A stretch of DNA of 64,000 nt from positions 13,675-77,674 of the forward strand of contig CAZUZW010000001.1 in assembly GCA_964624855.1 (NCBI GenBank). The letters run 5' to 3'. Source of the stretch: an uncultured Vicinamibacteraceae bacterium. Its GTDB lineage: Bacteria; Acidobacteriota; Vicinamibacteria; Vicinamibacterales; UBA8438. The position numbers and the translations under genes were made by a program. Below are positions 6,149-58,674 of this stretch, in pieces (within the stretch, counting starts at the first letter, position 1; every line of letters starts with the position of its first letter). The notes under the pieces were generated by a model. That model was not told where the DNA came from. It did no database searches and saw nothing but the letters and a program-made list of their open reading frames with translations.

Positions 6149-9105
6149 TGCATGCCACGAAGAAGTGTTTGTTGAAAGGGGCGCTGGTCGTCAGCTTTGT
6201 TGTTGCAGGTTCTTTTTCAGCGAACGCCTCCCAGATTGACCAATTAGTTGGCGAAATTGTCAGCGATGTCACACTTGTCAGAGAGGGGCGAGTTCTTCAA
6301 GATCCGTCGGTTTTGGAACTTGTTGAAACAAAAGTCGATCAACCACTTTCGATGCGACAGGTTCGTGAGAGCCTGAGCCATCTATTCAGCCTTGGCGTCT
6401 TCGAAGACGTTCAGGTTGTTGCTGGTCTAGGTTCGTCCGGGCTGTCTCTGCGGTACGATCTTCAACCGCTTGTCGTGATCGATCGGATCGAGTTCGAAGG
6501 CGATATTGAGATCTCCACTGGTGAACTTCGCGATGCAATGCGACAGTCTCACGGGGCGTCTTTTGAAGCCAGTATGGTTGAATCAGCAACCCGCACTATT
6601 CAAGATGTCTATCAGTCAAGGGGATTTTTTCAGTCTAGTGTGTCCACGCGGCTAGAAAGAACGGGTTCCGGACGCACACTTTATGTCGCGGTTGAACCTG
6701 GGCCACGGGCTCTGATTGCCCAGATCTTTGTCACGGGTATTTCGTCTACTTTGTATTCCTTCACACTCAACCGACTTGATCTCGAAGTAGGGCAAGTCTA
6801 TGACGGTAACGTCGTTGACGAACGATTAATTGACTACGAAGATGACCTCAGGCAAGAGCGTTACTATGAGGCAGATTTAAGTCACTCGATTGAGGTCAGT
6901 CCAGCAGGCGACCGAGTTGACCTGAGATTGAATATCCGGCGTGGGCCACGCATTGACGTCATGCTTGCTGGCGACAACGTTCCCGGTGCTGATTTAGCTG
7001 AACTGGTTCCCGTTGAACGAGAAGGCTCGGTTGATGAAGACCTTTTAGAAGATGCTGACCGAAGAATTGAAGGGCTTCTCACAGGACTAGGATACCGAGA
7101 TGCCACCGTCCTTCACAGTCGCGAGAGTGCGGATGAAGACCTTGCGATCGTTTTTATGGTTAACCGGGGGCAACTATATGAAATTGGAGAGGTAGTGATC
7201 AGCGGTCATGTTTCCGTGTCATATCCAGAATTGCAGGAACTGATTGACTTGCCGGTTGGCCGCCCCCTAATTACGAGTGAACTTGATACGGCAGTTTCCT
7301 TGATCACAGAACATTACAGTCGACTGGGGTTTGCGACGGTTTTAGTAGAGCCGGTAGTTACGCAGATGGATAACTCAGGACAGACAAATGGTGAGGTAAA
7401 AGTACTTTGCGAGATCAAAATTACCGAAGGTGTATTGACGCGAGTGCAATCAGTCACGATAGAAGGAGATCGACAGTTGCCTCGACAAGTCTTGGAGACG
7501 GCTATTCGGTCGCGCGTCGGTGAGCCGTATTATCCACAGCAAGTCGTTTTGGACCGAGATGCCGTTCGCCTTCTGTATTTAAACGCAGGATTTGAACGCG
7601 TAGTCGTCACAGTCGAGCCGCAGTTCGATGACAGTTTGGAAACCGTTGACTTGGTTTATCGGGTAATTGAGGGGCCCCAAGTCATGATCGAACACGTGTT
7701 GATTGTTGGAAACAATACGATTGAATCTGCAGCAATCAGACGGGAAGTCACCCTGCGTGCCGGTGAACCCTTGAGTTTAGTCGAGGTTGCAGAGACTAGA
7801 CGTCAACTCAATGCGCTTGGACTTTTTCGAAGGATTGATATTCGAGAGTTTAGTCATGGCGGTCGAGACCTACGCGATGTAGTGGTGATTGTCGATGAAG
7901 CACCGGCTACTAGGATCGGATACGGCGGTGGGCTTGAGGCTTCGGTTCGACTGCGGCGTGAGACTGACTTAGAGGGGAGTCAAGCAGTTGAGCGGCTTGA
8001 GTTTGCACCAAGGGGGTTTTTTCAGATTGGTCGGCAAAACCTCTGGGGTAAGAACCGTTCGATCAATCTTTTCACTCGCGTGAGTCTGCGCCGACAAAAT
8101 GATCCAGTACGGCTGCAGATAGGGCAAGGAGTTAACAGTCTTGGGTTTAATGAATACCGCGTGCTCAGCACGTTTCAAGAACCGCGTGTGATGGGGACCA
8201 ATTGGGACGGTTTCATTACGGGTTTTATAGAGCAAGCTATCCGACCTGGATTTGACTTGTTTAGCCGAGGCGTTAATGCCCAGATCGCACGTCAGTTTAC
8301 CTCCACGATAACCGCGTCCGTTGATTACGGTTGGGGGCAAAACAATACTTCGAACAAGGCACTGAACCCTGAAGACGAACCGTTGGTCGACCGACTGTTT
8401 CCGCAGGTCCGATTATCCACTTTTTCTGGGAGCGTGGCTCGTGACACTAGAGACGATCCAGCGGATCCTAGGCGCGGTGAAGTGCTTAGCGTAGATGCTG
8501 AGGTGGCTGGTCGAACTATCGGGTCAGAGGTTGGATTTGTCAAGACGTTCATGCAGGCCTTTGTCTATCGAGAAATTCCAGGAGCGTCACGCTTTGTCGT
8601 TGCTGCCGGCGCGCGAGTCGGTCTTGCAAGGGCATTTATGAGATCGGTTGATTTTCTTGATCCACAAAACAAATCGATTGCAGTTCTCGGGTCTCCGGTT
8701 GAGCTCCAGGTAGGTGAGTTACCACTTAGTGAAAGATTTTTTACGGGCGGTGATACCACTGTTCGAGGATTCGCACTGGACCGACTTGGTGATGACGACA
8801 CAATCGATCAAGATGGATTCCCGCAAGGCGGTAATGCAGCGCTAATTTTTAACGCTGAATTACGCACCAGAGTTACTAGAACAATAGACCTCGTTGGATT
8901 CTTGGACGCTGGTAATGTTTATAACCGTGTCAGTACGGTCAGTCTGTCTCGTATAAGGGCTGGCGCTGGGTTCGGTGTACGATATCGTTCGCCGGTTGGT
9001 CCAATTCGCGTTGATCTGGGTTTCAAGCTGGACCGCCAAAATTTTGACAATGGTGACTTGGAGCGACTCACAGCCCTTCATATCAGTATCGGGCAAGCGT
9101 TCTAG
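6148..9105 (+). CDS. bamA: Outer membrane protein assembly factor BamA (Omp85 family), long form
   Basis: Signal peptide, repeated POTRA-like modules, and an Omp85 barrel starting near ATRIGYGGGLEASV. The C-terminus ends ...HISIGQAF with a terminal Phe. 985 aa. Confidence 0.85.
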   Translation: MHATKKCLLKGALVVSFVVAGSFSANASQIDQLVGEIVSDVTLVREGRVLQDPSVLELVETKVDQPLSMRQVRESLSHLFSLGVFEDVQVVAGLGSSGLSLRYDLQPLVVIDRIEFEGDIEISTGELRDAMRQSHGASFEASMVESATRTIQDVYQSRGFFQSSVSTRLERTGSGRTLYVAVEPGPRALIAQIFVTGISSTLYSFTLNRLDLEVGQVYDGNVVDERLIDYEDDLRQERYYEADLSHSIEVSPAGDRVDLRLNIRRGPRIDVMLAGDNVPGADLAELVPVEREGSVDEDLLEDADRRIEGLLTGLGYRDATVLHSRESADEDLAIVFMVNRGQLYEIGEVVISGHVSVSYPELQELIDLPVGRPLITSELDTAVSLITEHYSRLGFATVLVEPVVTQMDNSGQTNGEVKVLCEIKITEGVLTRVQSVTIEGDRQLPRQVLETAIRSRVGEPYYPQQVVLDRDAVRLLYLNAGFERVVVTVEPQFDDSLETVDLVYRVIEGPQVMIEHVLIVGNNTIESAAIRREVTLRAGEPLSLVEVAETRRQLNALGLFRRIDIREFSHGGRDLRDVVVIVDEAPATRIGYGGGLEASVRLRRETDLEGSQAVERLEFAPRGFFQIGRQNLWGKNRSINLFTRVSLRRQNDPVRLQIGQGVNSLGFNEYRVLSTFQEPRVMGTNWDGFITGFIEQAIRPGFDLFSRGVNAQIARQFTSTITASVDYGWGQNNTSNKALNPEDEPLVDRLFPQVRLSTFSGSVARDTRDDPADPRRGEVLSVDAEVAGRTIGSEVGFVKTFMQAFVYREIPGASRFVVAAGARVGLARAFMRSVDFLDPQNKSIAVLGSPVELQVGELPLSERFFTGGDTTVRGFALDRLGDDDTIDQDGFPQGGNAALIFNAELRTRVTRTIDLVGFLDAGNVYNRVSTVSLSRIRAGAGFGVRYRSPVGPIRVDLGFKLDRQNFDNGDLERLTALHISIGQAF

Positions 9106-10647: not shown

Positions 10648-10802
10648 AAGCGTCTTAGCGGGGATGGGCGGCCACGAGAATATTCCAGTTTCTCGACTAC
10701 CGTATAGAGAGTAGACCGGTCGTTCCCGTGTCATACCAGTGAGGCAGTTTTGGGCACGGCGTTGGGGTAGCGGTGATGCCCGATTTCGGGAGAGGCAAGA
10801 AC

Positions 10803-13622
10803 ATGCCAAGAGGTTCTGCACAAGAGCACGAGTCTCATCACCTTCAGTCACAAACCACGCCAATCGAACCTGATGATACGGCTCCAGGAATTACATTCCT
10901 CAGGTACTTCAGCCGAGAGGGTATAGATCCTTTCGATGAGATTGAATGGGAGCTGCGATCGGCGGTAATTGCCAACGAGAAAGGTGAGACCGTTTTTGAG
11001 CAGCATGATGTCGAGATGCCAGAGACTTGGTCGCAACTAGCCACCAACATAGTTGTATCCAAATATTTTCGAGGCCCACTCGGTTCACCGGAACGTGAAC
11101 GGAGTGTCAAGCAGTTAATCGGACGGGTGGTCGATACGATTACAGAGTGGGCACGGAAGCAAAACTATTTCGTTGGCGACGATGACCTGAATGCTTTTAG
11201 TGCCGATCTTAAATATCTTCTTGTTCATCAGAAGGCGGCTTTTAACAGCCCCGTTTGGTTCAACTGTGGATTTGAGACTGCGCCGCAGTGTTCGGCGTGC
11301 TTCATTAACTCGGTTGACGATACGATGGAGTCCATACTGACGTTAGCCAAGACAGAAGGAATGCTATTCAAATTTGGCTCAGGAACCGGGACAAACCTCT
11401 CGTCGATTCGATCGTCCAGAGAGATGTTGGCCGGCGGCGGAACGGCGTCAGGTCCGGTATCTTTTATGAAGGGATACGATGCGTTTGCTGGTGTCATTAA
11501 GTCAGGTGGGAAGACCCGCCGGGCAGCCAAAATGGTAATCCTTGATGCTGACCATCCCGACATTGTTGAGTTTATTAACTGTAAGGTTGAGGAAGAGCGG
11601 AAAGCTTGGGCGTTGATTGATGCGGGTTACGATGGTTCGTTCACTGGGCCGGCTTATGCCTCGGTATTTTTCCAGAACTCTAATAACAGTGTACGAGCAT
11701 CAGACGATTTTATGCGAGCGGTAGTGGACGATGGAGAATGGCAGACCCATGCCATTCGTGATGGCAGTGTAATGGATACTTACCGCGCGCGAGAGTTAAT
11801 GGACATGATCGCGGAAGGCACGAATGTTTGCGGCGATCCGGGAATGCAGTTTGATACGACCATTAATGACTGGCATACATGTCCAAATACCGATCGAATC
11901 AACGCATCAAATCCTTGTTCAGAGTACATGTTCCTTGATGATTCCGCGTGTAACCTGGCGTCACTTAATCTCATGGGTTTTCTTGGCGAGACTGAAGGTG
12001 GCGAGGTGGACTTTGATGTCGCTGCATTTAGGGCGGCAGTGCGGACGCTAATAACGGCACAAGAAATACTCGTGCCCAATGCGAAATATCCCACGCCGTC
12101 AATTAAACAGAACAGCCATGACTATCGCCCGCTGGGGCTTGGTTATGCGAATCTGGGTGCCCTATTGATGTCCCGAGGTGTACCTTACGATAGCGACGAA
12201 GGTCGAGATTATGCTGCGGCAATTACTGCAGTGATGACCGGTGATGCTTACGCTCAGTCCGCACGTATAGCAAGGGACCACGGCGGTTCATTTGATGGGT
12301 ATTTGGACAACCGCGACCCATTTTTGCGGGTCATGGGGAAACACCGTTCGGCACTCAAGGATGTAGCCAAGGCCTATGTGCCTAAGTCGCTTTATGATGC
12401 GGCACAGGAAGCGTGGGACGATGCGGTAGAGCTAGGTGAGCAGCATGGGTATCGCAACGCTCAGGCAACCGTGCTGGCACCTACGGGCACCATTGGATTC
12501 ATGATGGATTGCGACACAACCGGCGTGGAGCCTGACATCGCACTCGTTAAATACAAGAAACTCGTGGGCGGTGGATTGATGAAGATTGTCAATCAGACTG
12601 TGCCAATGGCGTTGACGAGGCTCGGTTACACAGAAGAACAGATTAAAGCGATTGTCGAGTACATCGACAGCAACGAGACGATTGAGGGAGCGCCGCATCT
12701 AGACTCAAAACATTTGCCGGTATTCGACTGTGCCTTTAAACCGGCCAATGGTCAACGGTCAATACACTATGCGGGACACATCAAAATGATTGGTGCGACA
12801 CAGCCATTCATTTCTGGTGCGATTTCAAAAACGATTAATGTCCCGACTGATGCAACTGTCGAGCAGATAAAACAGGCCTATATTGATGCATGGCGTCTTG
12901 GAACGAAGGCTGTTTCTATTTATCGAGACGGGAGTAAACGTACACAACCGCTTAATACCTCGCAAGATGCTCAAATGGATGAGGCGATTGCCCAAGCTTC
13001 TGGCGACTCTCAACCGGTAAGGCGAAAATTGCCTGACGAAAGGCAGGCCATTACGCACAAGTTCGATATAGCAGGACACGAGGGGTACATCACCGTAGGC
13101 TTATATGAAGACGGATCACCGGGAGAGATCTTCTTGGTTATGGCCAAGGAGGGTTCAACGATTTCTGGTTTTGCTGATGCTTTTGCGCAGGCCGTGTCCT
13201 ACGCGCTCCAGTATGGTGTTCCACTACAGGCCCTTGTTGATAAATTTAGCCACGCTCGTTTTGAACCGTCCGGGCTGACGAAAAATCCTGATGTCCGGTT
13301 GGCGAAATCGATAGTTGATTATATTTTTCGCTGGATGGCTACTAAGTTTTTGTCTCAGACGGCACAGTACCGGGCTGGCGTCAACCTTCGTGAGGAGACC
13401 GCCGATGCCGCCGATGCTGAGCAACTTGAACTGACCCAGACCCAGAAGGATGTAGGAGAAGAGTCGGTTTCAGGAGAGGAAACGAACAATCAAAAAGCCA
13501 CGCCCTTTGCGATCCAAAACGACCAGGACGCACCGCCGTGTTCCACATGCGGTGCAATCATGATTCGCAACGGTGCATGCTACAAATGTGTGAATTGTGG
13601 TGCAACCAGCGGCTGTGGCTAG
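10803..13622 (+). CDS. nrdJ: Adenosylcobalamin-dependent (class II) ribonucleotide reductase
   Basis: Class II RNR motifs include ASNPCSEYMFLDDSACNLASLNL (thiyl-radical Cys loop) and a C-terminal CxxC...CxxC tail (CSTCGAIMIRNGACYKCVNCG). ATG at 10803 follows GGGAGAGG (10788-10795). The track start at 10773 is also possible. Confidence 0.9.
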   Translation: MPRGSAQEHESHHLQSQTTPIEPDDTAPGITFLRYFSREGIDPFDEIEWELRSAVIANEKGETVFEQHDVEMPETWSQLATNIVVSKYFRGPLGSPERERSVKQLIGRVVDTITEWARKQNYFVGDDDLNAFSADLKYLLVHQKAAFNSPVWFNCGFETAPQCSACFINSVDDTMESILTLAKTEGMLFKFGSGTGTNLSSIRSSREMLAGGGTASGPVSFMKGYDAFAGVIKSGGKTRRAAKMVILDADHPDIVEFINCKVEEERKAWALIDAGYDGSFTGPAYASVFFQNSNNSVRASDDFMRAVVDDGEWQTHAIRDGSVMDTYRARELMDMIAEGTNVCGDPGMQFDTTINDWHTCPNTDRINASNPCSEYMFLDDSACNLASLNLMGFLGETEGGEVDFDVAAFRAAVRTLITAQEILVPNAKYPTPSIKQNSHDYRPLGLGYANLGALLMSRGVPYDSDEGRDYAAAITAVMTGDAYAQSARIARDHGGSFDGYLDNRDPFLRVMGKHRSALKDVAKAYVPKSLYDAAQEAWDDAVELGEQHGYRNAQATVLAPTGTIGFMMDCDTTGVEPDIALVKYKKLVGGGLMKIVNQTVPMALTRLGYTEEQIKAIVEYIDSNETIEGAPHLDSKHLPVFDCAFKPANGQRSIHYAGHIKMIGATQPFISGAISKTINVPTDATVEQIKQAYIDAWRLGTKAVSIYRDGSKRTQPLNTSQDAQMDEAIAQASGDSQPVRRKLPDERQAITHKFDIAGHEGYITVGLYEDGSPGEIFLVMAKEGSTISGFADAFAQAVSYALQYGVPLQALVDKFSHARFEPSGLTKNPDVRLAKSIVDYIFRWMATKFLSQTAQYRAGVNLREETADAADAEQLELTQTQKDVGEESVSGEETNNQKATPFAIQNDQDAPPCSTCGAIMIRNGACYKCVNCGATSGCG

Positions 13623-28899: not shown

Positions 28900-30174
28900 A
28901 TGAACTTAACTCGTCGTGCGTTATTGGCCGGTGGATTCGGCGCAGCGGCATCGGCTATTACCAATGCTGCCGGTCCAACGGGTGTGAGTGGCGTGTCGGC
29001 TGAAGCCATGGCAGTGTTGCTCGGTGACAGTAGACAGTGGCTTCACCAGCAGTATCCCGACCTCCGGCGGCATTTTGTTTTTGAGTACTACCCCTGGTAC
29101 GGCAGGAATCCGATGCGTCATTGGCAACAGTGGGGGCGTGTGCCACCGCTCGACCTTGCGGCAAATACGATGCCAGCATTGGGCGCTTACGACTCTAGGT
29201 CGGTCTCGGTTGTGGAACAACATGCGCGTTGGATCAATGAGTCGGGTGTTGGAGCGGTTAACCTGAGTTGGTGGGGGCGCGGTGAGTTTGAGGACCGAGC
29301 CGTCCATCTCATTATGGACGTCATGCACGCTCACGATATCCGTGTGACATTTCATCTTGAACCGTATGGCTCGAAACGTGCTGAGCAACTTCCTGCTGAC
29401 GTGGCTTATATCCTTCAGGAGTATGGAGAGAAACGACAGTGGGATTGTTTGTTGCTTCACCGGTGGTCTGATGGAACGACAGGGCCTGTTTTTAAACTAT
29501 TTAACTCGCTTGTTCCGAAAAGTATCCGTGATTGCCACGGCAAAGAGGTCGAATTACGTGATTATGTGCCCCAGGGGACATGGCGGCGCGTCACCGATGA
29601 AATACGGAGAACCCACAGACATGATTTTGACCACGTGACGATTCTTTCAGAATCGCCGAATGCTGGAGATGTTGCCTCCGCAGGATTTGACGGCCTTGCG
29701 ATTTATGGTCCGGACTCTCTTCAGACGCATTGGCTTGAATGGGCACTCGAGGCCAGCCGGAAGGGTTTGGTGTTTACGTTCAATGTGAATCCAGGTCTTG
29801 ACGAAATTGAGCGACGGAACGTTGCGTTTGGTTCATGCTATCAACCGCGTTCTTTCATACCGGCCACTTCGCCGTTTCAGTGGACCAAGAGCGCGGACCG
29901 TGAGCGAGCAACATATCTTGCTGAAAACCAAATTGGCGAGACGTTGGCGACCTCCGTGTTGTTACAAACGCATCCGTGGTTGGAAAATGTGCGCCAAGGA
30001 TTTTTTCTTGTGTATGTGTGTTCGTTTAATGAATGGCACGAGGGGCATCAGTTTGAGCCAATGAAGGATTGGGCAGCACTGACGCCCGACGAGCGTGTTC
30101 ATGGGTACCACAATCCGGTTAACGGAGCCTACCGTCTTCAATGTCTGCAGCGCTGGCTCCGGCGTTTGTTATGA
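28900..30174 (+). CDS. Tat-exported glycoside hydrolase family 99-like protein (endo-alpha-mannosidase-like)
   Basis: Twin-arginine signal MNLTRRALLAGGFGAAASA. GH99-like blocks are YYPWYG, PALGAYDSRSVSVVEQH, GAVNLSWW, VTFHLEPY and SFNEWHEGHQFE (compare MANEA: SFYPELGSYSSRDPSV, LALSWY, VTFHIEPY, SFNEWHEGTQIE). Confidence 0.75.
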   Translation: MNLTRRALLAGGFGAAASAITNAAGPTGVSGVSAEAMAVLLGDSRQWLHQQYPDLRRHFVFEYYPWYGRNPMRHWQQWGRVPPLDLAANTMPALGAYDSRSVSVVEQHARWINESGVGAVNLSWWGRGEFEDRAVHLIMDVMHAHDIRVTFHLEPYGSKRAEQLPADVAYILQEYGEKRQWDCLLLHRWSDGTTGPVFKLFNSLVPKSIRDCHGKEVELRDYVPQGTWRRVTDEIRRTHRHDFDHVTILSESPNAGDVASAGFDGLAIYGPDSLQTHWLEWALEASRKGLVFTFNVNPGLDEIERRNVAFGSCYQPRSFIPATSPFQWTKSADRERATYLAENQIGETLATSVLLQTHPWLENVRQGFFLVYVCSFNEWHEGHQFEPMKDWAALTPDERVHGYHNPVNGAYRLQCLQRWLRRLL

Positions 30175-30968: not shown

Positions 30969-31991
30969 CTACTGTTCTGACCCTGTCTCGTCGGCTGTCG
31001 CCCGTTCCTCTGCCCGATGCCCGGCGAGGATTCCCTCCATTCCAATGTTTCCCTCGTGGCAGGCGTATTCAAAAATCGCATCGTCGGTATGTCGGAGAGG
31101 AATTGACGCCGTCCAGGGCTTTACCCATGTAGCTGTATCTTCAAACGTGACGTCATAATTCAGAATATCCGGACCTGTCCTCGTGAAGCGCTCTGTAACC
31201 TGTAGGTCACGTGTGGCTCCTCTGAAGGTGGATTCTGCAGTGTAGTTCGACGTTTCAATAACGAGCGTGTCGCCTTCCCAGTGAGCTCTGGAGTCGCCAT
31301 GAAGCTGTCGAATCGATTCTGGAAGAGCAGGATGGTCGCCGATTGGAATGACCCGTGCATCGTGAATCATTTCCTGATAAACCACGACATAGTCTTTGCT
31401 CTGAAAGATCTGGAAATAGCTGTTATAACCCGCGCCAATTCTTGGGACGCCATAACTGACACACCGTTCGGCTAAGGGGCGGTCAGTATATGTGTCAGCT
31501 GGATGTTCTTGCCGATGGACGGCTCGCTGTGCTCGCCGCGCTCTGGCTTGCGGAGTGACCTCCGGAATACGACCATCTGGTGGATCAATGACCAGTGATG
31601 TGCGGTCTGTGTTGAAGGTGCGGTTTGCGATCCAGAACTGATTGTAGTTGCCTGTCGTCGGATCGTAGGATTTGGCTGTGGTCTTTTCGATTGCGGCCAG
31701 AATGAGCTGGTCTCCGAAGAGGGCATCTTGGCCTGGGTCACTCGCTTCGGCGGCGGCGGCCATAACTTGACTTAGTTCTTCTTGGGAAAGATGTTCCTTC
31801 TCCGACCAAGCTTCAGGTCGTTGGAGGGGTGTTGCATTATTGTTTGCCCACACGCCCTGAAAGTCTGGTTGGTCATCACTCGTTCTCGGCACAGTCCACC
31901 CGTCTGGCGCGGGTTGTCCTATTGCCGGTATAGGCCCGAGGAACACTAAACTACAGAGAACTAGCCAACCGAACGGGAATACTCGTTTCAC
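30969..31991 (-). CDS. Secreted protein of unknown function
   Basis: GTG at 31991 lies 6 nt after GGAGG (31998-32002); the track TTG at 31997 abuts the SD. Signal peptide FPFGWLVLCSLVFLGPIPAIGQ. Conserved-looking blocks DFQGVWANNNATPLQRPE and FEYACHEGN. Confidence 0.6.
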   Translation of the reverse strand: MKRVFPFGWLVLCSLVFLGPIPAIGQPAPDGWTVPRTSDDQPDFQGVWANNNATPLQRPEAWSEKEHLSQEELSQVMAAAAEASDPGQDALFGDQLILAAIEKTTAKSYDPTTGNYNQFWIANRTFNTDRTSLVIDPPDGRIPEVTPQARARRAQRAVHRQEHPADTYTDRPLAERCVSYGVPRIGAGYNSYFQIFQSKDYVVVYQEMIHDARVIPIGDHPALPESIRQLHGDSRAHWEGDTLVIETSNYTAESTFRGATRDLQVTERFTRTGPDILNYDVTFEDTATWVKPWTASIPLRHTDDAIFEYACHEGNIGMEGILAGHRAEERATADETGSEQ

Positions 31992-32065
31992 GGGCAACCT
32001 CCAAAATTAGACAAACCGAAAGAAATACGTTATTCCGGTCATGATACTCGAGGAGTGTCGAACCG

Positions 32066-32181: not shown

Positions 32182-34896
32182 CTAGAATTGGACTTGAATC
32201 CCAGCGAATCCACTGCGTGGAGCTCCAGGCCCGAGAAAACGGGGGTCTTCTGCGGTGGGTGCTTCTGCTATGTAAACCTCGAGTTCGGCGAGGATGCCGA
32301 ATGTGGAGTAGTCCTTATCGAATAGGTTCTCGATACGTACGAACATCTCGAGATTGGGGGTAAAACGATAGGTGGACCGCAGATTGGCAATGCCGTAGCC
32401 GTCAAGCAATGCTTGGTCGTTACCTTCGTCACCAACGAAGACTCGACTTGAACTGACGATAGTTTCAAGGTCGATGTTCCAGTCAGCTGTTACGGCTATG
32501 CCGAAACCAGTTTTGAAACTGTGCCTTGGGATGCCTGGCAATCGGTCGCCAGGTTCGACGGCAAGCGAACCCCGTTCTTCGTTGGCGGCATCGTTCACTT
32601 CAGAATTTCCTGGAAGCTCTAGTGGTGATGCGAAGGTTGCTTCTACCAGTCCGTAGCTGACAAACCCAGCGAATCGATCGGTTTGTCCGCGGACTTCGAG
32701 ATCCAGACCAAATCTGCGAGTGTCGCCTGCATTTTGAAAAAATCCAGTGCCGATCAGTTTGGGTGACGCCACGAACAGAATGTCGTCCTCTATTTCCGTG
32801 CGATACACAACCAGGGACCAATCGAGGTTTCCGCCTGATTGATAAACCGATTGTCCTCGCACACCGGCTTCGAGGGAATGGGCAACGATCTGCTCCAGTG
32901 GTGGGTCGGACACGAAGGCATTCGGTACCCGGCACGGTTCTTCCGGATCGGCGCAACTGAGTTCGGCTGCCGTGGGAGCGCGATTTGCCTCGCTGTACCG
33001 GCCAAAGACCGAGACACTATCGGTCGTCTCATAGACCGCCCCGACACCGATATTGAATCTGGAGAAGTTGTGTTGACCGTTGAGCGAAGTGCCCAAGAGG
33101 TCGAGAATGTCGACTTGGGCGTCGTTGAACCGCCCGGACACAGTCAGATGAGTTCGCGCGGTTACAGAGAAAGTGTCCGAGAAATAAAGGCCGATCGAAC
33201 GGTTGTTTGAGTCTAACGCGGTGTTAAAGATGTCATCGGGCGCAGTCCCAAACAATCCGGTAAAAAGGCCAGACCCAACCACGGTGCGTTGATCAGTAAG
33301 GTCGCCAATCTCACTGTTAGAGGAGAAGTTCACATCGGCCATATCAGCGGACAGTCCGAGAACCAGCACATTGGTTCGAACGTTCTCACCGGTCCGTGCT
33401 GTGGCCTGAATGGTTCCGCCATATCCGGTGGTGTGGGTCTGGCTTCGGTTGAAAGCTCCCGTGCCGTCGGTCTCATTCTCTGTAATGAATTCGCCGGTTC
33501 GAATATCGACTAGCGGGTGTTCTTCAGAGTCATCGTCGTCATCATCATCATCGTCGAGCGCGGTAAGGTCGTGAGCAAGGATTTCGTCATCGTCATCATC
33601 ATCATCATCACCGAGACAGAGGGTATTGGCTGGTGCACCAGTTGGCAGAGAATCATCGTCACAGGTCACGAACTCGGCTTCGTCGCCGTTAAGGGTGTTA
33701 CTGTCGAGGTCACGGTAATAGCCAGTCATTTGCACGGACCAGACAGGTGAGGCTTGGAGGTTGAAACGTCCTTGGACAAATCCAAGCTGATTTTCGGTGA
33801 TGTCGGGATAAGTGAAGACGGCAGAACGGTCGACTTGCAGTAATTCAATCGGTGCCGGACCGTTCCCGTTTAGACGCGAGTCTGCGTAGCTGAAGCTGAC
33901 GCCGGCATCGACGGAGTCCTTCCGGTAGGCCAGGTCGGCTACAGCCTGTGTAACTTCGGAGGGAGATTCAATTCGCCACCCAGTCTCATCGAACCGAGTC
34001 GCGCCGAGGTACAGAGCCCATGGTCCCCGGTTGGCACCCCATTCTGTGGTGGCACTGACACGGCCAAACGAGCCACCAGAAAGTTCTCCTCGAAATCCGG
34101 CCGCGTCAAATCCGTTCTTGAGATTGAGTGCCAGTGCACCACCCAACGCGTTTAGTCCATATGTTGGGTCGGCTCCCGCGCTCAGTTGTATCCGCTCAAG
34201 TGCAAACTGAGGGATGAGATCAAACTGCACAGTATCACCGAACGGTTCGTTGATTCGAACACCGTTTTGATAGACGGCGATTCCCTGAGGTAAACCAAGG
34301 AGCGGAGATGCCGTGAATCCACGGAATCGGACGGTCGGTTGAAAGAGATTTGCGGTGGTGCCTTCGATGCTGACGGCGCCCAATTGCTCTTGTAGCGCGT
34401 CGGCCAGCGAGACCGTGTGCCGTTCGCGAATTTCGGTCGCAGAAATGCTGGAGATCATTGCGGGAATGTGGTCCGGGTCTATCCCGGTTCCACTGAGAGG
34501 AGTTACTCCAACTACATCCACCTGTTGACTGAAGCCTCCGACCGCGAGTTCAACATCCACGGTGGTGACTGCATTTGGGCCCACTCGTACGCCTTGACGT
34601 AACTCAGTTTGGAATCCTGCCATCGTTATCGTGATGGCGTAGATGCCTTCGTTCAGTGATGGAAAACGGTACTGTCCGCTGCCGTCGGTTACAGTTTCCA
34701 CAGGTGGTGTCGCAGTTGAAGTAGCAATGACCGATGCCCCCTCAATGGAACCCCCTTGGCTATCTCTAACATAGCCGGTCAGTTCCACTGTTTGTGCCGC
34801 CACCGGGTGATTGGTTAGCAAGCTAACTGTAACGACTGTTCCCACGAACAACATGGAGCGAAGGCTTTGTGTTCCGAATAGACCAATATTTAGCAT
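32182..34896 (-). CDS. TonB-dependent receptor with N-terminal CarboxypepD_reg-like domain and an acidic poly-Asp loop insertion
   Basis: Signal peptide, carboxypeptidase-regulatory-like domain (VELTGYVRDSQGGSIEGASV), plug domain, a 22-strand-type barrel and the C-terminal GIQVQF. Confidence 0.85.
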   Translation of the reverse strand: MLNIGLFGTQSLRSMLFVGTVVTVSLLTNHPVAAQTVELTGYVRDSQGGSIEGASVIATSTATPPVETVTDGSGQYRFPSLNEGIYAITITMAGFQTELRQGVRVGPNAVTTVDVELAVGGFSQQVDVVGVTPLSGTGIDPDHIPAMISSISATEIRERHTVSLADALQEQLGAVSIEGTTANLFQPTVRFRGFTASPLLGLPQGIAVYQNGVRINEPFGDTVQFDLIPQFALERIQLSAGADPTYGLNALGGALALNLKNGFDAAGFRGELSGGSFGRVSATTEWGANRGPWALYLGATRFDETGWRIESPSEVTQAVADLAYRKDSVDAGVSFSYADSRLNGNGPAPIELLQVDRSAVFTYPDITENQLGFVQGRFNLQASPVWSVQMTGYYRDLDSNTLNGDEAEFVTCDDDSLPTGAPANTLCLGDDDDDDDDEILAHDLTALDDDDDDDDDSEEHPLVDIRTGEFITENETDGTGAFNRSQTHTTGYGGTIQATARTGENVRTNVLVLGLSADMADVNFSSNSEIGDLTDQRTVVGSGLFTGLFGTAPDDIFNTALDSNNRSIGLYFSDTFSVTARTHLTVSGRFNDAQVDILDLLGTSLNGQHNFSRFNIGVGAVYETTDSVSVFGRYSEANRAPTAAELSCADPEEPCRVPNAFVSDPPLEQIVAHSLEAGVRGQSVYQSGGNLDWSLVVYRTEIEDDILFVASPKLIGTGFFQNAGDTRRFGLDLEVRGQTDRFAGFVSYGLVEATFASPLELPGNSEVNDAANEERGSLAVEPGDRLPGIPRHSFKTGFGIAVTADWNIDLETIVSSSRVFVGDEGNDQALLDGYGIANLRSTYRFTPNLEMFVRIENLFDKDYSTFGILAELEVYIAEAPTAEDPRFLGPGAPRSGFAGIQVQF
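33529..33609 (-). repeat. Two in-frame (GAY)n trinucleotide tracts encoding Asp9 and Asp8
   Basis: 33529-33555 is nine consecutive GAY codons (plus strand gtcatcgtcgtcatcatcatcatcgtc). 33586-33609 is eight consecutive GAY codons. Confidence 0.95.
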
Positions 34897-36238: not shown

Positions 36239-38701
36239 ATGAGTATTGTCAGGTGGAAGGACCTCCGTTGCCTACACGTTCTTATGGTTTGCTTCTTGGT
36301 ATCGGGCCTACAGACCGCTAGAGCCCAACCTTTGACTACGGTCACGGGTGTGGTGCTCGATGGTGTGACCAATGCGCCCATCGCAGATGTTGACGTTGTT
36401 AGCGGACAGCGCACCGTGGTCACAGGTTCAGACGGTCGCTTTTCGATCGCAGTCGATACCGAAACATCCGAGTTGCGCTTTAAGGCAGATGGATATCTCG
36501 ATAGTGTCGCGCCGTTAGTCGGGGGGGACCTAGAGGTTCGACTCTTTTCCAGCCGGTTTGCCGAGACCGTCGAGGTGGTCTCCGACATTGCTGAAATTGA
36601 AGGGCCGTCATCTACACCAGTGACTCCAGACGCTGTGTTCAGGGCACCAGGTAGCATTGATAATGTCTTCCGCACTCTCGATACATTGGCGGGAGTAGCC
36701 TCGACCGACGATTTCGGGAGCCGTTTGGCCGTACGAGGTGGAACTCCTGACCAGAACCTGACGGTGATGGACGGTATCGAAGTACACAACCCTTACCGAC
36801 TTTTTGGTATAGCCAGTGCGTTCAACCCTGAAACCGTTGAAAATTTTCAGCTCACTGCCGGGGGGTTCGGAGCTGCATACGGGGACCGGTTGTCATCCCT
36901 CTTGATTGTTGACAACCGACGCGGACGGTCTGAATTTCACGGATCGACCTCAGTTAGTGTGACTGACGCCAACGTGGTCGTCGAAGGTGGTGTGCCGATT
37001 GGTCAGGGAGGCAGTTGGTTGTTTAGTGCCCGTCGAACCTACTACGACTTGGTGGCTGGGCGGTTACAAGACCAGAATTTTCCATCGTTTTCGGACCTAC
37101 AACTACAAGTGGGATGGGAGTTTGGTCCAGGGCATCGCCTGACCCTGACGGGGCTTCGAAGCATCGAAAACGCAGATTTGGATTTCGACATTGATCGACC
37201 CAACGAACGCGCAGCATTGGGTTCTGATGTTGTAAATAACTTGGCGTCGGCACGTTTCGACGCCGTCCTCGGCGGCAGGGCGACGACGACGACGACTTTG
37301 TCGTGGTACCGCAACCGGGAGACCATTGACTTTGATGGCCTTATACGTGCGGATGCCAGACGGTCGAACACTGCGGATGACGCGCTAGCATTTGGACTGT
37401 CAACAATCTTGTTCGACCGATCAATCAATGTTCGAGACCTTTCGTTTCGGCAGGAAGTTGGTATACAGGCTTCTCCGCGCCATTTATTCAGTACAGGAGT
37501 CGAATTGCACGGGTTGGCGACGAGTGTCGGTTTTTCAATTACCGGAGATCGCAATGAGAATGTTGCAAACGGGTCCAGCGTGCGAGGTGGCGCTGGATTA
37601 CCTGGGCAGCTCGACTCACAACTACAGGGCACGCGAGGTGCACTTTGGTTTCAGGACACCTTCACGCCGTCGACAAGATTTTCCTTTGAGCCCGGGCTGC
37701 GTCTGGATTGGAGCACTGTAAACGGAGGGACTACGGTCTCGCCGCGCTTAGCCGCCAGTTATTTGCTCGGCCGAGGAGCCAGAATGCGATTCGCGACGGG
37801 GTTATATACGCAGAGTCCTGGCTACGAGAAGTTAACTCAGTCCGACTATTTTATTGACCTGTCGTCGGCACGAGAGGCGGGTCTGCTTCATGAGAAGGCC
37901 GTACATGTGGTCCTTGGGATCGAGCAGGAACTCAGTTCTGATCTGACCGCTCGGGTGGAAGGGTATTTTAAGCGGTTTGACGATCTACTGGTTGGTCGTC
38001 TTGAGACTGATGCTGAACGGTTAGCGCGCGTTGCACAATACGATTTTCCTGTGGTGTTGCGAGACAGTATCCCGTTCGCTCCGAGTATCGTCAGCGATCC
38101 TACCAACGATGCGGGGGGGGATGCCTACGGACTTGATGTGTTCGTATCTCACTCGAATCCGGCGGCGCCGTTAACTGGATGGCTGTCTTACGGGTGGGGT
38201 CACGCCAACCGGGACAGTTACGGTCGCCGCTATGCATTTGAGTACGATCGACGCCATGCCTTCAATGCTGTCGGTCGGTATCAATTGACGAGTCGCTGGG
38301 ACGTGGCAGGTACGATGCGTCTTGCGAGTGGGTTTCCCCATACGGCTCCGGTCGGGCTTCGGGTTTCCGCCGTCCGGGATCGCCGGGGGCGATTGGTGCC
38401 TGCAACTGACGCGGTTGGCAACCTTGTTTACGGCGTGGACTACGGAGGGATCGATAATCTTAACCGGGCGCGGTTGCCTCACTATGCACGGGTAGATCTT
38501 CGTGTGACGTACCAACGTGGCGGAGCCAGCGGGCCTTGGTCGTTCTATATTGAGGTGATTAATTTGTTGAATCGTAACAACGCTGTGGTACTAGAACCTC
38601 GGCTGAGCCACGATCCCGGGTCTGAAAGACCCCGTCTCTCTGAAGTGCCGGAACAGGGCTTTCCCCGTATCCCGACCTTTGGATTACGAGTTCGCTTCTA
38701 G
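36239..38701 (+). CDS. TonB-dependent receptor-like outer membrane protein (CarboxypepD_reg + plug + barrel)
   Basis: Signal peptide ending TARAQ, VTGVVLDGVTNAPIADVDV, plug block LAVRGGTPDQNLTVMDGIEVHNPY, and C-terminal FGLRVRF. Confidence 0.75.
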   Translation: MSIVRWKDLRCLHVLMVCFLVSGLQTARAQPLTTVTGVVLDGVTNAPIADVDVVSGQRTVVTGSDGRFSIAVDTETSELRFKADGYLDSVAPLVGGDLEVRLFSSRFAETVEVVSDIAEIEGPSSTPVTPDAVFRAPGSIDNVFRTLDTLAGVASTDDFGSRLAVRGGTPDQNLTVMDGIEVHNPYRLFGIASAFNPETVENFQLTAGGFGAAYGDRLSSLLIVDNRRGRSEFHGSTSVSVTDANVVVEGGVPIGQGGSWLFSARRTYYDLVAGRLQDQNFPSFSDLQLQVGWEFGPGHRLTLTGLRSIENADLDFDIDRPNERAALGSDVVNNLASARFDAVLGGRATTTTTLSWYRNRETIDFDGLIRADARRSNTADDALAFGLSTILFDRSINVRDLSFRQEVGIQASPRHLFSTGVELHGLATSVGFSITGDRNENVANGSSVRGGAGLPGQLDSQLQGTRGALWFQDTFTPSTRFSFEPGLRLDWSTVNGGTTVSPRLAASYLLGRGARMRFATGLYTQSPGYEKLTQSDYFIDLSSAREAGLLHEKAVHVVLGIEQELSSDLTARVEGYFKRFDDLLVGRLETDAERLARVAQYDFPVVLRDSIPFAPSIVSDPTNDAGGDAYGLDVFVSHSNPAAPLTGWLSYGWGHANRDSYGRRYAFEYDRRHAFNAVGRYQLTSRWDVAGTMRLASGFPHTAPVGLRVSAVRDRRGRLVPATDAVGNLVYGVDYGGIDNLNRARLPHYARVDLRVTYQRGGASGPWSFYIEVINLLNRNNAVVLEPRLSHDPGSERPRLSEVPEQGFPRIPTFGLRVRF

Positions 38702-58497: not shown

Positions 58498-58674
58498 CTC
58501 CTCGCCGCGGGGCTGGTTGGTGGTTCAACGGTTCGTGCCCATCGCGGTAGCCGGTCAGAACTCCTGAATGGAGCACCATCATTTCCAATAAACCCATTTC
58601 TGTTCCCTCCGAAAAGTGGCACAATGCCTCGATATGGAGGCGTTTACGGGACGAAGTCTCAAGGAGGGTGCAAA

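What the first reader, a model, noticed from the sequence alone, without database searches (positions are those of the whole stretch)
33466..33687. TonB-dependent receptor with a 74-residue hyper-acidic loop containing Asp8 and Asp9 runs encoded by (GAY)n repeats
Residues 404-477 read GDEAEFVTCDDDSLPTGAPANTLCLGDDDDDDDDEILAHDLTALDDDDDDDDDSEEHPLVDIRTGEFITENETD. By hand count, 32 of 74 residues are Asp or Glu and only one is Arg. Two Cys flank the first part. The insertion falls in the barrel region, where extracellular loops occur. Such a loop could concentrate multivalent cations (Ca2+, Fe3+) or rare-earth ions, and a lanthanide-type PQQ dehydrogenase lies 24 kb away, but that link is pure speculation. 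At the DNA level, the 27-nt and 24-nt GAT/GAC tracts (33529-33555, 33586-33609) are in-frame slippage-prone repeats. They could generate loop-length variants between strains.
Basis: partly seen in the sequence, partly recalled or inferred. Interest (0 to 1): 0.55.

Follow-up and report, generated by a model that had tools for sequence, protein, structure and literature searches.

The report
Variable poly-aspartate loop on outer-membrane transporter
[quoted passage not shown] The loop most likely acts as a cation-binding "fishing line", but its cargo is unknown.

Summary
The gene at 32182..34896 (-) encodes a 904-aa TonB-dependent transporter. Residues 404-477 hold 24 Asp and 8 Glu, 1 Arg and no Lys, with D8 and D9 runs encoded by GAT/GAC.

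The segment is extracellular loop L4, between strands 7 and 8. It consists of a conserved C-x14-C hairpin followed by a disordered acidic insert.

The protein is a well-conserved gene of Vicinamibacterales; the window is 96% identical to a Tara Oceans Vicinamibacteraceae MAG. Across 69 orthologs every other surface loop is fixed in length and 64-94% conserved. Only L4 varies (55-123 aa).

Genes more than 99% identical at DNA level carry (GAT)4, (GAT)5 or (GAT)6, or an extra GATGAC, giving D7, D8, D9 or D10. Other species carry perfect 15- and 24-nt in-frame tandem repeats, so slippage is demonstrated.

Acidic or Asp/His L4 expansions recur in distant relatives (Alteromonadaceae, Holophagales, Poribacteria). 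In Holophagales the transporter sits in an operon with a HupE/UreJ-type metal permease.

The best reading is a polyanionic cation-capture loop like ZnuD loop 3. This is an inference. The substrate is unknown, and the link to the PQQ dehydrogenase 24 kb away is not supported by gene context.

The parts
32182..34896 (-). Gene for a 904-aa TonB-dependent outer-membrane transporter with an N-terminal carboxypeptidase-regulatory-like extension
   Evidence: ORF. Pfam CarboxypepD_reg 58.6 bits, Plug 52.6, TonB_dep_Rec_b-barrel 143.4, all above gathering scores. Foldseek matches to Fiu, PqqU, PiuA and YncD at E about 1e-26 to 1e-28.
34792..34896 (-). Signal peptide region (residues 1-35, ending ...HPVAAQ)
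   Evidence: Read directly from the sequence. The AQT boundary is conserved in alignment A1. The cleavage site is inferred.
34546..34782 (-). N-terminal extension, CarboxypepD_reg domain (residues 39-117)
   Evidence: Pfam PF13620, E 8e-16. AF2 predicts a beta sandwich with pLDDT 81-87.
34504..34527 (-). Candidate TonB box QQVDVVGV (residues 124-131)
   Evidence: Lies between the N-terminal extension and the plug. V125, V127 and V128 (model numbering, which is protein numbering minus 1) are invariant or nearly invariant in 70 orthologs. Its function is inferred.
34135..34470 (-). Plug domain (residues 143-254)
   Evidence: Pfam PF07715, E 7.6e-14. 74% mean identity across 69 orthologs.
33460..33687 (-). 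Extracellular loop L4 (residues about 404-479), between barrel strands 7 and 8. It contains the acidic segment of the finding.
   Evidence: AF2/DSSP strands at 385-402 and 479-501 (model numbering, which is protein numbering minus 1). Long and short connections alternate. Strand parity agrees from both termini. It is the only loop of variable length (55-123 aa) among 69 orthologs.
33616..33663 (-). Conserved Cys412-x14-Cys427 hairpin (CDDDSLPTGAPANTLC), probably disulfide-bonded
   Evidence: The spacer is exactly 14 residues in 207 of 211 homologs. AF2 places two short paired strands at 407-410 and 424-427 (model numbering, which is protein numbering minus 1). The hairpin is present in outgroups at 41-50% identity. 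The disulfide is inferred.
33586..33609 (-). Asp8 tract, (GAT)5-GAC-GAT-GAC: a polymorphic in-frame microsatellite
   Evidence: TRF reports period 3, 8 copies. Alleles (GAT)4, (GAT)5, (GAT)6 and +GATGAC occur in genes 99.0-99.9% identical.
33556..33585 (-). Spacer EILAHDLTAL between the two tracts, a short partly hydrophobic segment
   Evidence: Read from the sequence. Analogous hydrophobic spacers sit between acidic tracts in many homologs, e.g. AMGFAAM, LLQSLASL and AEAATLTTS. No role is known.
33529..33555 (-). Asp9 tract, GAC-(GAT)4-GAC-GAC-GAT-GAC
   Evidence: TRF period 3 and 9. D8, D9 and D10 variants and GAT>TAT variants occur in the 90% cluster.
33481..33516 (-). Conserved C-terminal frame of L4, PLVDIRTGEFIT
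   Evidence: PLVDxxTGRFIT is conserved in nearly all homologs.
32932..32955 (-). Second Cys pair (C648-x6-C655) in loop L7
   Evidence: Invariant in 70 orthologs. L7 is 94% identical across orthologs. It aligns to the Cys-containing L7 region of CirA.

Best explanation
What it is (shown). The segment is extracellular loop 4 of a conserved Vicinamibacterales TonB-dependent transporter. The loop has two modules:
1. A fixed C-x14-C hairpin inherited from a wide transporter family.
2. Directly after the hairpin, an intrinsically disordered poly-Asp insert.

How it evolves (shown). The insert grows and shrinks by in-frame replication slippage of GAY-based repeat units.

What it does (inferred). The polyanionic tether, with net charge -31 in this protein, reaches above the barrel mouth and binds multivalent cations. 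It thereby pre-concentrates the transporter's cargo and hands it to the conserved binding surface formed by the other loops. The cargo would be either a scarce metal cation or a metal-bridged ligand. TonB-driven plug movement would then admit it. This resembles the "fishing net" role described for the His/Asp-rich loop 3 of ZnuD. Repeat-number changes would tune the reach and capacity of the tether.
For: Topology and disorder:
- Strand parity, the alternation of long and short connections, and the L7 Cys motif place the loop outside the cell. pLDDT is below 50 for residues 430-455.

Family-wide feature:
- There are 168 distinct inserts of 4-81 aa at the same site. They are 42% Asp, 9% Glu, 0.1% Lys and 2% Arg, with net charge -47 to 0 and median -13.

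Conserved surface:
- All other extracellular loops are fixed in length and 64-94% identical across 69 species-level orthologs, while periplasmic turns are 11-50% identical. The surface is therefore a conserved ligand-binding structure, and L4 is its only plastic element.

Slippage:
- D7, D8, D9 and D10 alleles differ by GAT or GATGAC units in genes more than 99% identical.
- A 15-nt unit repeated 8.7 times at 100% identity in L036, and a 24-nt unit repeated 5.2 times at 97% in L002.

Recurrence:
- In 143 representatives at 35-50% identity, L4 is twice as acidic as the whole protein.
- 18 of these representatives, including members of Alteromonadaceae, Holophagales, Rhodospirillales and Poribacteria, have [DE] runs of 5 or more there.

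Metal link:
- The Holophagales branch has a pure Asp/His L4. It is followed co-directionally by an unknown 231-235-aa gene and a HupE_UreJ_2 permease, with the flanking genes differing between loci.

Precedent:
- ZnuD loop 3 carries the clusters HSHEYDDCHAD and HDDDNAHAHTH and captures metal on a flexible loop (PMC4557270).
- The BtuB aspartate cage binds Ca2+ and raises ligand affinity about 1000-fold (PMC7360065).
Against: - No metal binding has been measured, and the substrate is unknown.
- Gene context of the Vicinamibacterales orthologs is not conserved. It contains no metal permease, ABC transporter, Fur/Zur-type site or riboswitch.
- 84% of insert residues are Asp or single-nucleotide neighbours of Asp codons (E, H, N, G, A, V, Y). 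His, Asn and Gly enrichment can therefore be mutational rather than selected.
- About a dozen lineages have non-acidic or very short inserts, and outgroups lack the insert entirely. It is dispensable for the basic transport function.
- From general chemistry: in seawater a disordered poly-Asp would be saturated by about 10 mM Ca2+ and 50 mM Mg2+, so selective capture of picomolar metals is doubtful.
- The AF2 model is only moderate (mean pLDDT 62), and no coordinates could be inspected.
Confidence: 0.4

Rival explanations
1. Neutral low-complexity expansion. The wider family has an ancestral short acidic patch after the hairpin, encoded by GAY codons. This patch seeds replication slippage. The site is sterically permissive, so tracts expand, contract and decay with little or no effect on function.
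For: - Slippage alleles occur about as often as all point substitutions in the rest of the gene combined: 1 indel against 1-4 mismatches in about 2.7 kb.
- Perfect DNA repeats point to recent events.
- Composition matches the one-step mutational neighbourhood of GAY for 84% of residues.
- Some lineages carry decayed, non-acidic inserts, and outgroups have none.
- No partner gene is conserved.
Against: - Acidity is retained in most of the 168 unrelated insert sequences, and Lys and Arg are almost excluded.
- Independent expansions occur at the same site in at least five distant lineages.
- The rest of the surface is under strong purifying selection, so an 80-residue polyanion above the binding site is unlikely to be invisible to selection.
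Confidence: 0.3
2. Surface-variation (contingency) locus. Tract-length changes alter an exposed epitope so that phages, bacteriocins or predators using this conserved transporter as a receptor lose their grip. The negative charge adds electrostatic shielding.
For: - It is a hypermutable simple repeat in a surface loop, with several alleles coexisting in natural populations.
- From memory, L4 of FhuA is the main binding loop for phages T1, T5 and phi80.
- The PqqU paper shows that a phage targets a related transporter (PMC12124388).
Against: - All other exposed loops are highly conserved in sequence and length. Receptor-driven diversification usually affects several loops.
- The changes are in-frame steps of one or two residues within a homopolymer, which barely change the epitope.
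- There is no on/off switching.
Confidence: 0.12
3. A dedicated lanthanide (or Fe3+) harvesting loop. The poly-Asp tether captures trivalent hard cations directly, without a secreted chelator. It would feed the lanthanide-dependent PQQ dehydrogenases of these Acidobacteria.
For: - A methanol/ethanol-family PQQ dehydrogenase with the DxD motif (WDLDEP) lies at 58624..60543.
- Marine Acidobacteria MAGs from Tara carry up to 70 predicted Ln-dependent PQQ dehydrogenases, yet LutH-like transporters were found only in Alpha- and Gammaproteobacteria (PMC11996626).
- The closest solved relatives of this protein are PqqU and YncD. Known Ln transporters are reported to have the same top PDB hit (bioRxiv 10.64898/2026.07.10.737718).
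Against: - The dehydrogenase is 24 kb away, behind unrelated genes (BipA, an exonuclease, a TPP enzyme, KatG).
- No PQQ or xox gene is a conserved neighbour in 80 loci.
- The roughly 120-aa periplasmic partner reported beside Ln transporters is absent.
- The similarity to PqqU is remote (E 3e-16, partial).
- The same loop type occurs in taxa with no known lanthanide link.
- The required selectivity against about 10 mM Ca2+ is implausible for a disordered tract.
Confidence: 0.08
4. A mineral-adhesion loop. Poly-Asp binds calcium phosphate, carbonate or iron-oxide surfaces and docks the transporter onto particles from which nutrients are released.
For: - From general knowledge, poly-Asp runs of 6-10 residues are classic mineral-binding motifs.
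- A PhoD phosphatase lies convergently downstream in 7-9 marine loci.
Against: - PhoD is convergent, is confined to one sub-clade, and is absent from the window.
- There is no other supporting evidence.
Confidence: 0.05

Closest known systems
ZnuD (Neisseria zinc TonB-dependent transporter), extracellular loop 3
   Same: It is a TonB-dependent transporter with a long, flexible extracellular loop rich in metal-ligating residues (HSHEYDDCHAD, HDDDNAHAHTH). The loop captures metal ions and passes them to a buried site (PMC4557270). Some orthologs and relatives of the window protein have Asp/His tracts of the same flavour (L043, L044, L058, P0219).
   Different: - The loop differs: L3 in ZnuD, L4 here.
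- ZnuD does not appear among PDB sequence hits at E of 1e-3 or better.
- The window tract is almost pure Asp, with two His in the 74 residues (one in the spacer between the tracts, one after the second tract).
- It is far longer and more acidic, and it is a length-polymorphic repeat.
- There is no evidence of Zur regulation.
BtuB calcium 'aspartate cage' (loops L2-L3)
   Same: Clustered Asp residues in extracellular loops bind Ca2+. This orders the loops and raises ligand affinity about 1000-fold (PMC7360065). It is a model for how a cation-loaded acidic loop could help bind a non-cationic ligand.
   Different: - BtuB uses five defined Asp residues in a folded site, not a disordered run.
- The window protein scores 35.5 bits against the BtuB model, whose cutoff is 599.7.
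- No cobalamin riboswitch lies upstream.
PqqU/YncD clade (closest solved structures; reported neighbourhood of LutH-type lanthanide transporters)
   Same: - It is the best PDB match by profile: 9c4o at 3.4e-16 and 6v81 at 9.3e-15, against 2.4e-8 for the next hit.
- It is among the best Foldseek matches, with TM-score 0.74-0.76 on the target.
   Different: - NCBIfam PqqU scores 65.6 bits against a cutoff of 1200.
- The signature aromatic residue Y99 aligns to Leu in the invariant motif RGFTASPLLGLPQG.
- PqqU has no N-terminal extension and no acidic L4.
In-frame repeat arrays in bacterial surface proteins (e.g. Ser-Asp repeats of staphylococcal Sdr/Clf proteins; tandem-repeat length variation in outer-membrane proteins)
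   Same: These are codon-unit tandem repeats in a surface-exposed, disordered, acidic segment, with strain-to-strain copy-number variation produced by slippage.
   Different: Those repeats are stalks of Gram-positive adhesins or epitopes of pathogen antigens. Here the repeat sits inside one loop of a 22-strand transporter barrel in free-living environmental bacteria, and the rest of the surface is strongly conserved.
Oar / SusC-type transporters with a CarboxypepD_reg N-terminal extension
   Same: The domain order is the same: CarboxypepD_reg extension, TonB box, plug, barrel (PMC6434023 listed).
   Different: - The SusC/RagA model scores 22.9 bits against a cutoff of 368.
- There is no SusD-like partner.
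- No relation to the acidic loop is known.

Membership tests
TonB-dependent transporter (TBDT) | N-terminal plug domain inside the barrel | tested here: met
   Pfam PF07715 scores 52.6 bits against a cutoff of 23.9, residues 143-254.
TonB-dependent transporter (TBDT) | 22-strand C-terminal beta barrel ending in an aromatic residue | tested here: met
   Pfam PF00593 scores 143.4 bits. AF2/DSSP gives 22 strands if 538-547 and 558-576 are counted as one kinked strand. Foldseek E reaches 2.7e-28 against solved TBDTs. The C-terminal residue is Phe904.
TonB-dependent transporter (TBDT) | TonB box upstream of the plug | tested here: inconclusive
   The conserved motif QQVDVVGV (124-131) is in the expected place, with invariant Val residues. 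Interaction with TonB is not testable here.
ZnuD-type zinc transporter | Sequence relationship to ZnuD and His/Asp clusters in loop 3 | tested here: not met
   No ZnuD chain appears among PDB hits at E of 1e-3 or better, with either the single sequence or the profile. The acidic segment is in L4, and the window tract is nearly His-free.
ZnuD-type zinc transporter | Zur-dependent regulation / zinc uptake | not testable with these tools
   No Zur consensus is known for Acidobacteriota. The upstream regions share no common motif apart from an ECF-type promoter in 17 of 72 loci.
PqqU (PQQ importer) | Equivalog-level similarity | tested here: not met
   NCBIfam NF041535 scores 65.6 bits against a cutoff of 1200.
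PqqU (PQQ importer) | Signature residues Y99 (F/W allowed), R304, R365 (PMC12124388) | tested here: not met
   Y99 (Y106 in 9c4o numbering) aligns to Leu in the invariant RGFTASPLLGLPQG. R304 and R365 lie outside the aligned stretches and were not assessed.
BtuB (cobalamin importer) | Equivalog similarity and an upstream cobalamin riboswitch | tested here: not met
   TIGR01779 scores 35.5 bits against 599.7. There is no Rfam hit in the window other than a tRNA, and none in 10 orthologous loci.
LutH-type lanthanide transporter | Clusters with experimentally confirmed REE transporters (e.g. WP_060849375.1, WP_003609830.1) | not testable with these tools
Only the shared 'top PDB hit is PqqU/YncD' property could be seen.
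LutH-type lanthanide transporter | Adjacent small (about 120 aa) periplasmic Ln-binding protein and/or PQQ/xox genes | tested here: not met
   The neighbours are a 342-aa unknown protein and an LLM oxidoreductase. No conserved small ORF (90 aa or longer) and no PQQ gene was found in 80 loci.
SusC/RagA-type transporter | SusC model match and an adjacent SusD-like lipoprotein | tested here: not met
   TIGR04056 scores 22.9 bits against 368. No SusD-like neighbour is present.
Simple-sequence contingency locus (phase variation) | Simple repeat whose unit number varies among close strains | tested here: met
   (GAT)4, (GAT)5, (GAT)6 and +GATGAC alleles occur in genes 99.0-99.9% identical, from three different samples.
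Simple-sequence contingency locus (phase variation) | Repeat changes switch expression on and off (frameshift or promoter spacing) | tested here: not met
   The repeat units are 3, 6, 15 and 24 nt, all in frame. Every allele seen encodes a full-length protein.

The most novel reading that the evidence does not exclude
The poly-Asp L4 tether is a chelator-independent harvesting device for hard trivalent cations (lanthanides and/or Fe3+). It would belong to a previously unrecognised metal-importing TBDT family, and would supply the missing outer-membrane lanthanide importer of marine and soil Acidobacteria. These organisms encode dozens of Ln-dependent PQQ dehydrogenases but have no LutH-type transporter. 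Repeat-number variation would tune the capacity of the tether.
Probability: 0.1. Interest if true: 0.85.

Novelty: new variant of a known kind. Interest (0 to 1): 0.5.

Why it matters
- **Substrate prediction.** TonB-dependent transporters are the main gateway for scarce nutrients in Gram-negative bacteria, and their substrates are notoriously hard to predict. This is a strongly conserved, order-wide transporter of Vicinamibacterales, abundant soil and ocean Acidobacteria. Its surface is frozen apart from one polyanionic, length-polymorphic loop. The same solution has arisen repeatedly in unrelated bacteria, including cultivable Alteromonadaceae.
- **If the loop is a cation antenna.** It would be a simple, genetically tunable way to concentrate metals at the cell surface. 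That bears on trace-metal and rare-earth cycling and on the design of metal-binding surface displays.
- **If the loop is neutral.** It would be a clean natural example of a coding microsatellite tolerated inside a membrane-protein loop.
- **Testability.** Cultured carriers exist, so either outcome can be tested.

Tried and rejected
- **Gene-context inference.** I clustered all ORFs of 80 orthologous loci. Only sub-clade neighbours appeared: an unknown 340-aa secreted protein, a convergent PhoD, MoxR/VWA and an NHL protein. No transport partner was found.
- **Riboswitches.** Rfam found nothing upstream in the window or in 10 loci.
- **Upstream motifs.** No common regulator site was found. A subset has an ECF-type promoter with an ECF sigma / ZAS anti-sigma pair, which says nothing about the substrate. 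No Fur box lies upstream of the Marisediminitalea relative.
- **Substrate-specific families.** NCBIfam models for siderophore, haem, PqqU, BtuB, copper, CirA, Fiu and SusC were all far below cutoff.
- **Fold search.** It returned only generic TBDT matches.
- **Metagenome DNA-pattern scan.** The scan for tract alleles returned nothing, even though a JGI contig with exactly that pattern was later retrieved by protein look-up. The alleles were therefore collected through protein clusters instead.
- **Literature.** Searches for poly-Asp or acidic loops in TonB-dependent transporters found no description.
- **HupE_UreJ_2 permease.** The permease found next to the Holophagales relative was searched for in the window and in all Vicinamibacterales loci and was absent.
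- **Rejected: His/Asn/Gly in the inserts as proof of metal-site design.** These residues are all one-nucleotide neighbours of Asp codons.
- **Rejected: general surface diversification.** All other loops are conserved.


Full report
**1. Observation**

The minus-strand ORF 32182..34896 encodes a 904-aa protein.
- They contain 24 Asp, 8 Glu, 1 Arg, 0 Lys and 2 His.
- The two runs are D8 (residues 430-437; nt 33586-33609; GAT×5, GAC, GAT, GAC) and D9 (residues 448-456; nt 33529-33555).
- Cys412 and Cys427 bracket the first part.

Chance is excluded. None of 20,000 shuffles of the protein gave an Asp run longer than 7. None of 16 other long ORFs in the window has an acidic run of 5 or more. Asp codon use in the loop (14 GAT, 10 GAC) is close to the window background (344 GAT, 422 GAC), so this is not a compositional artefact.

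**2. What the protein is**

Pfam gives CarboxypepD_reg (39-117), Plug (143-254) and the TonB-dependent receptor barrel (410-858), all above gathering scores. The other expected parts are also present:
- a signal peptide;
- a conserved TonB-box-like motif, QQVDVVGV (124-131);
- a C-terminal Phe.

No substrate-specific NCBIfam model comes near its cutoff:

| Model | Score (bits) | Cutoff (bits) |
|---|---|---|
| Siderophore | 82 | 223 |
| Haem | 80 | 317 |
| PqqU | 66 | 1200 |
| BtuB | 35 | 600 |
| SusC | 23 | 368 |

An AlphaFold2 model built from 70 orthologs has mean pLDDT 62, with barrel strands mostly at 70-85. It matches solved transporters generically: Fiu, PqqU, PiuA, YncD and FoxA at E 1e-25 to 1e-28.

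By profile-sequence search the closest solved structures are PqqU (9c4o, 3.4e-16) and YncD (6v81, 9.3e-15), well ahead of CirA (2.4e-8). It is nevertheless not PqqU. The signature aromatic residue Y99 aligns to Leu in the invariant motif RGFTASPLLGLPQG.

**3. Where the acidic segment sits**

The model's numbering is protein numbering minus 1, because the first alignment row lacks Met1.

Long connections in the model (22, 76, 25, 32, 36, 18 and 38 residues) alternate with short ones (2-6 residues). Counting from the plug, where strand 1 starts in the periplasm, and from the C-terminus, where strand 22 ends in the periplasm, gives the same answer. The segment lies between strands 7 and 8, so it is extracellular loop L4.

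The loop holding the second Cys pair (C648-x6-C655) is then L7. This agrees with its alignment to the Cys-containing L7 region of CirA.

Residues 430-455 have pLDDT below 50, as expected for a disordered tract. The stretch around the two cysteines is modelled as a small beta hairpin.

**4. Family and taxonomy**

More than 6,000 homologs score E of 1e-10 or better. The top 120 are 60-100% identical, and where they are named they are Acidobacteria or Vicinamibacterales.

In one-genome-per-species GTDB representatives, 209 stretches encode a relative. The best 80 are almost all Vicinamibacterales or Vicinamibacteraceae MAGs. One is a Tara Oceans MAG at 96% identity (L004), so the window very likely comes from a marine Vicinamibacteraceae genome.

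**5. Anatomy of L4 across homologs**

The loop has a rigid frame: TLNGDEAEFxxC-x14-C at the start and PLVDxxTGRFITxDDAxGxAAFNRT at the end.
- The Cys spacer is exactly 14 residues in 207 of 211 sequences.
- The frame is kept even in outgroups at 41-50% identity, including other Acidobacteriota, an Opitutales MAG and a Magnetospirillum MAG. These have almost nothing between the second Cys and (P)LVD.

In Vicinamibacterales that position holds an insert:
- 168 distinct inserts of 4-81 residues (median 32);
- composition 42% Asp, 14% Gly, 10% Ala, 9% Glu, 4% His, 2% Arg and 0.1% Lys;
- net charge -47 to 0, median -13.

Many inserts, including the window's, have the form acidic tract, short hydrophobic spacer, acidic tract.

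**6. The rest of the surface is frozen**

Among 69 species-level orthologs more than 55% identical, every other extracellular loop has an essentially fixed length. These loops are 64-94% identical to the window protein (L7 94%; L1, L6 and L8 83-84%). Periplasmic turns are only 11-50% identical. L4 is the single exception, at 55-123 residues.

A conserved surface with one plastic element argues for a conserved ligand-binding architecture. It argues against general diversification of the surface under phage or predator pressure.

**7. Slippage is demonstrated**

Within the 90% cluster around the window protein, otherwise identical proteins carry D7, D8, D9 or D10 in the first tract.

I retrieved the DNA of three of these alleles from three different samples. 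Outside the tract they are 99.0-99.9% identical to the window gene. Within it they differ by whole repeat units:

| Source | Repeat | Allele |
|---|---|---|
| L086 | (GAT)4-GAC-GAT-GAC | D7 |
| Window | (GAT)5-GAC-GAT-GAC | D8 |
| L085 | (GAT)6-GAC-GAT-GAC | D9 |
| L084 | window repeat + GATGAC | D10 |

One tract indel accompanies only 1-4 point differences in about 2.7 kb. The tract therefore mutates orders of magnitude faster per site than the rest of the gene.

The second tract is D9 in this haplotype and D8 or D10 in sister haplotypes, with occasional GAT>TAT or GAT>GTT changes.

In other species the insert contains near-perfect longer units:
- 15 nt (NGDDD) repeated 8.7 times at 100% identity in L036;
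- 24 nt (DDDHDDNG) repeated 5.2 times at 97% identity in L002.

All units are multiples of three and every allele is full-length. This is length variation, not on/off phase variation.

**8. The trait recurs outside the order**

An exhaustive search of 1.84 billion representatives found 24,505 relatives, 1,013 of them at E of 1e-30 or better. Among 143 near-full-length representatives at roughly 35-50% identity:
- most lack the N-terminal extension;
- the L4 region is twice as acidic as the whole protein (0.21 against 0.11), with median net charge -8;
- 18 have [DE] runs of 5 or more there.

Named examples are listed below.

| Lineage | L4 feature |
|---|---|
| Marisediminitalea and Alteromonas sp. 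AMM-1 (cultured Alteromonadaceae) | D3-5, spacer AEAATLTTS, D6-10, varying between strains |
| Holophagales | See below |
| Rhodospirillales | [DE] run of 5 or more |
| Candidatus Poribacteria | [DE] run of 5 or more |

The Holophagales cluster has an L4 made purely of Asp and His (e.g. GDDDDDDDHGHDDDHDDDDDHDHDEHDHDDDHDGDDDHDEF). It varies from about 15 to about 45 residues between strains.

**9. Clues to function**

*Gene context of the Vicinamibacterales orthologs is uninformative.*
- No neighbour is conserved beyond sub-clades.
- There is no ABC transporter or binding protein and no riboswitch.
- In 17 of 72 loci the gene is preceded by a fixed-spacing ECF-type promoter (TGAAC-N16-GAAT[A/G]T) and a divergent ECF sigma / zinc-anti-sigma pair. 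The window lacks these.

*The one informative context is in Holophagales.* There the Asp/His-loop transporter is followed co-directionally by a 231-235-aa unknown protein and a HupE_UreJ_2 permease. HupE/UreJ proteins are known as inner-membrane Ni/Co-type metal permeases; this is my own knowledge. The trio is retained while the flanking genes differ. No such permease lies near the window gene or its orthologs.

*Precedents.* Flexible His/Asp clusters of ZnuD loop 3 capture metal and feed a buried site, described as a "fishing net" (PMC4557270). Ca2+ bound by the BtuB aspartate cage raises cobalamin affinity about 1000-fold (PMC7360065).

**10. Interpretation**

Shown:
- an extracellular, disordered, polyanionic L4 insert anchored on a conserved hairpin;
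- a family-wide and recurrent distribution;
- evolution by in-frame slippage.

Inferred, with about 0.4 confidence: the tether binds multivalent cations and concentrates or presents the cargo to the conserved binding surface.

Caveats:
- 84% of insert residues are Asp or one-nucleotide neighbours of Asp codons. His, Asn and Gly enrichment may be mutational.
- A dozen lineages have non-acidic inserts, and outgroups have none.
- In seawater, Ca2+ and Mg2+ would saturate a poly-Asp tract.

Rivals:
- The main rival (about 0.3) is a slippage-driven, near-neutral expansion at a permissive site.
- A surface-variation role (about 0.12) is weakened by the conservation of all other loops.
- Mineral adhesion (about 0.05) rests only on general chemistry and a sub-clade PhoD neighbour.

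**11. The lanthanide idea (about 0.08-0.1)**

For:
- The dehydrogenase at 58624..60543 is a methanol/ethanol-family PQQ enzyme (505 bits against a cutoff of 480) with the two-aspartate motif WDLDEP.
- Marine Acidobacteria MAGs encode up to 70 predicted Ln-dependent PQQ dehydrogenases, while LutH-like transporters were found only in Proteobacteria (PMC11996626). Their importer is an open question.
- Reported Ln transporters share the "top PDB hit is PqqU/YncD" property.

Against:
- The two genes are 24 kb apart, behind unrelated genes.
- No PQQ or xox gene and no small periplasmic partner is conserved next to the transporter.
- The PqqU similarity is remote.

It remains an attractive but weakly supported reading.

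**12. Novelty**

Full-text searches found no description of poly-Asp or hyper-acidic repeat loops in TonB-dependent transporters. Database names are only "TonB-dependent receptor".

I file it as a new variant of a known kind: an ordinary TonB-dependent transporter carrying an undescribed, recurrent, repeat-encoded polyanionic L4 module.

Noticed in passing
L001 7274-7894 and 6316-7158; L002 7313-7885 and 6261-7307; promoter motif 33-80 nt upstream of the transporter start in 17 of 72 loci: Many soil orthologs are preceded by a fixed-spacing ECF-type promoter (TGAAC-N16-GAAT[A/G]T) and a divergent ECF sigma factor. Next to it is an anti-sigma protein with an HxxxCxxC zinc motif. Its conserved periplasmic domain (AEYELDFLITPELGG...NLWPQPY) matches no family. 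The window gene lacks all of this.
   Followed up: partly
window 58624..60543 (+): PQQ-dependent dehydrogenase of the methanol/ethanol family (TIGR03075, 505 bits against cutoff 480). It carries the two-aspartate motif WDLDEP associated with lanthanide-dependent enzymes. It is 24 kb from the transporter, behind unrelated genes.
   Followed up: partly
window 30969..31997 (-): A 342-aa secreted protein 185 nt downstream of the transporter, with no Pfam or NCBIfam match. Homologs occur in 11 of the fetched loci. They are adjacent to the transporter only in the window's own clade (window, L004, L055).
   Followed up: partly
window 36239..38701 (+): A second transporter with CarboxypepD_reg, plug and barrel (820 aa). 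It is divergent from the first, has no acidic runs and has no NCBIfam match at 1e-5.
   Followed up: no
alignment of 69 orthologs: Extracellular loops are much more conserved (64-94% identity) than periplasmic turns (11-50%). This is the reverse of what is usually seen in TonB-dependent transporters.
   Followed up: partly
L089 7001-10840; L093 4001-7817; L094 1745-5561: In Holophagales a relative with a pure Asp/His L4 is followed by an unknown 231-235-aa protein and a HupE_UreJ_2 permease. It looks like an uncharacterised outer- plus inner-membrane metal uptake operon.
   Followed up: partly
L087 8544-8565 and 8829-8850: Upstream of the Marisediminitalea relative, a near-palindrome CCGGGAA-N3-TTCCCGG occurs twice about 285 nt apart. 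It could be a regulator site or a pair of hairpins. No Fur box is present.
   Followed up: no
L019 8884-10458 and 6-8 other marine loci: A PhoD-family alkaline phosphatase lies convergently 10-600 nt downstream of the transporter in one marine sub-clade.
   Followed up: partly
The DNA search on metagenome contigs versus L084: The exact-pattern scan of JGI metagenome contigs returned nothing, although a JGI contig (3300040814, Ga0436650_0002816) containing exactly that pattern was retrieved by protein look-up. The two collections evidently differ in coverage.
   Followed up: no
window 1964..9105 (+), 10773..13622 (+), 28900..30174 (+): Other genes in the window: a TamB-like and an Omp85/POTRA pair, a class II (B12-dependent) ribonucleotide reductase, and a GH99-family glycoside hydrolase.
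   Followed up: no
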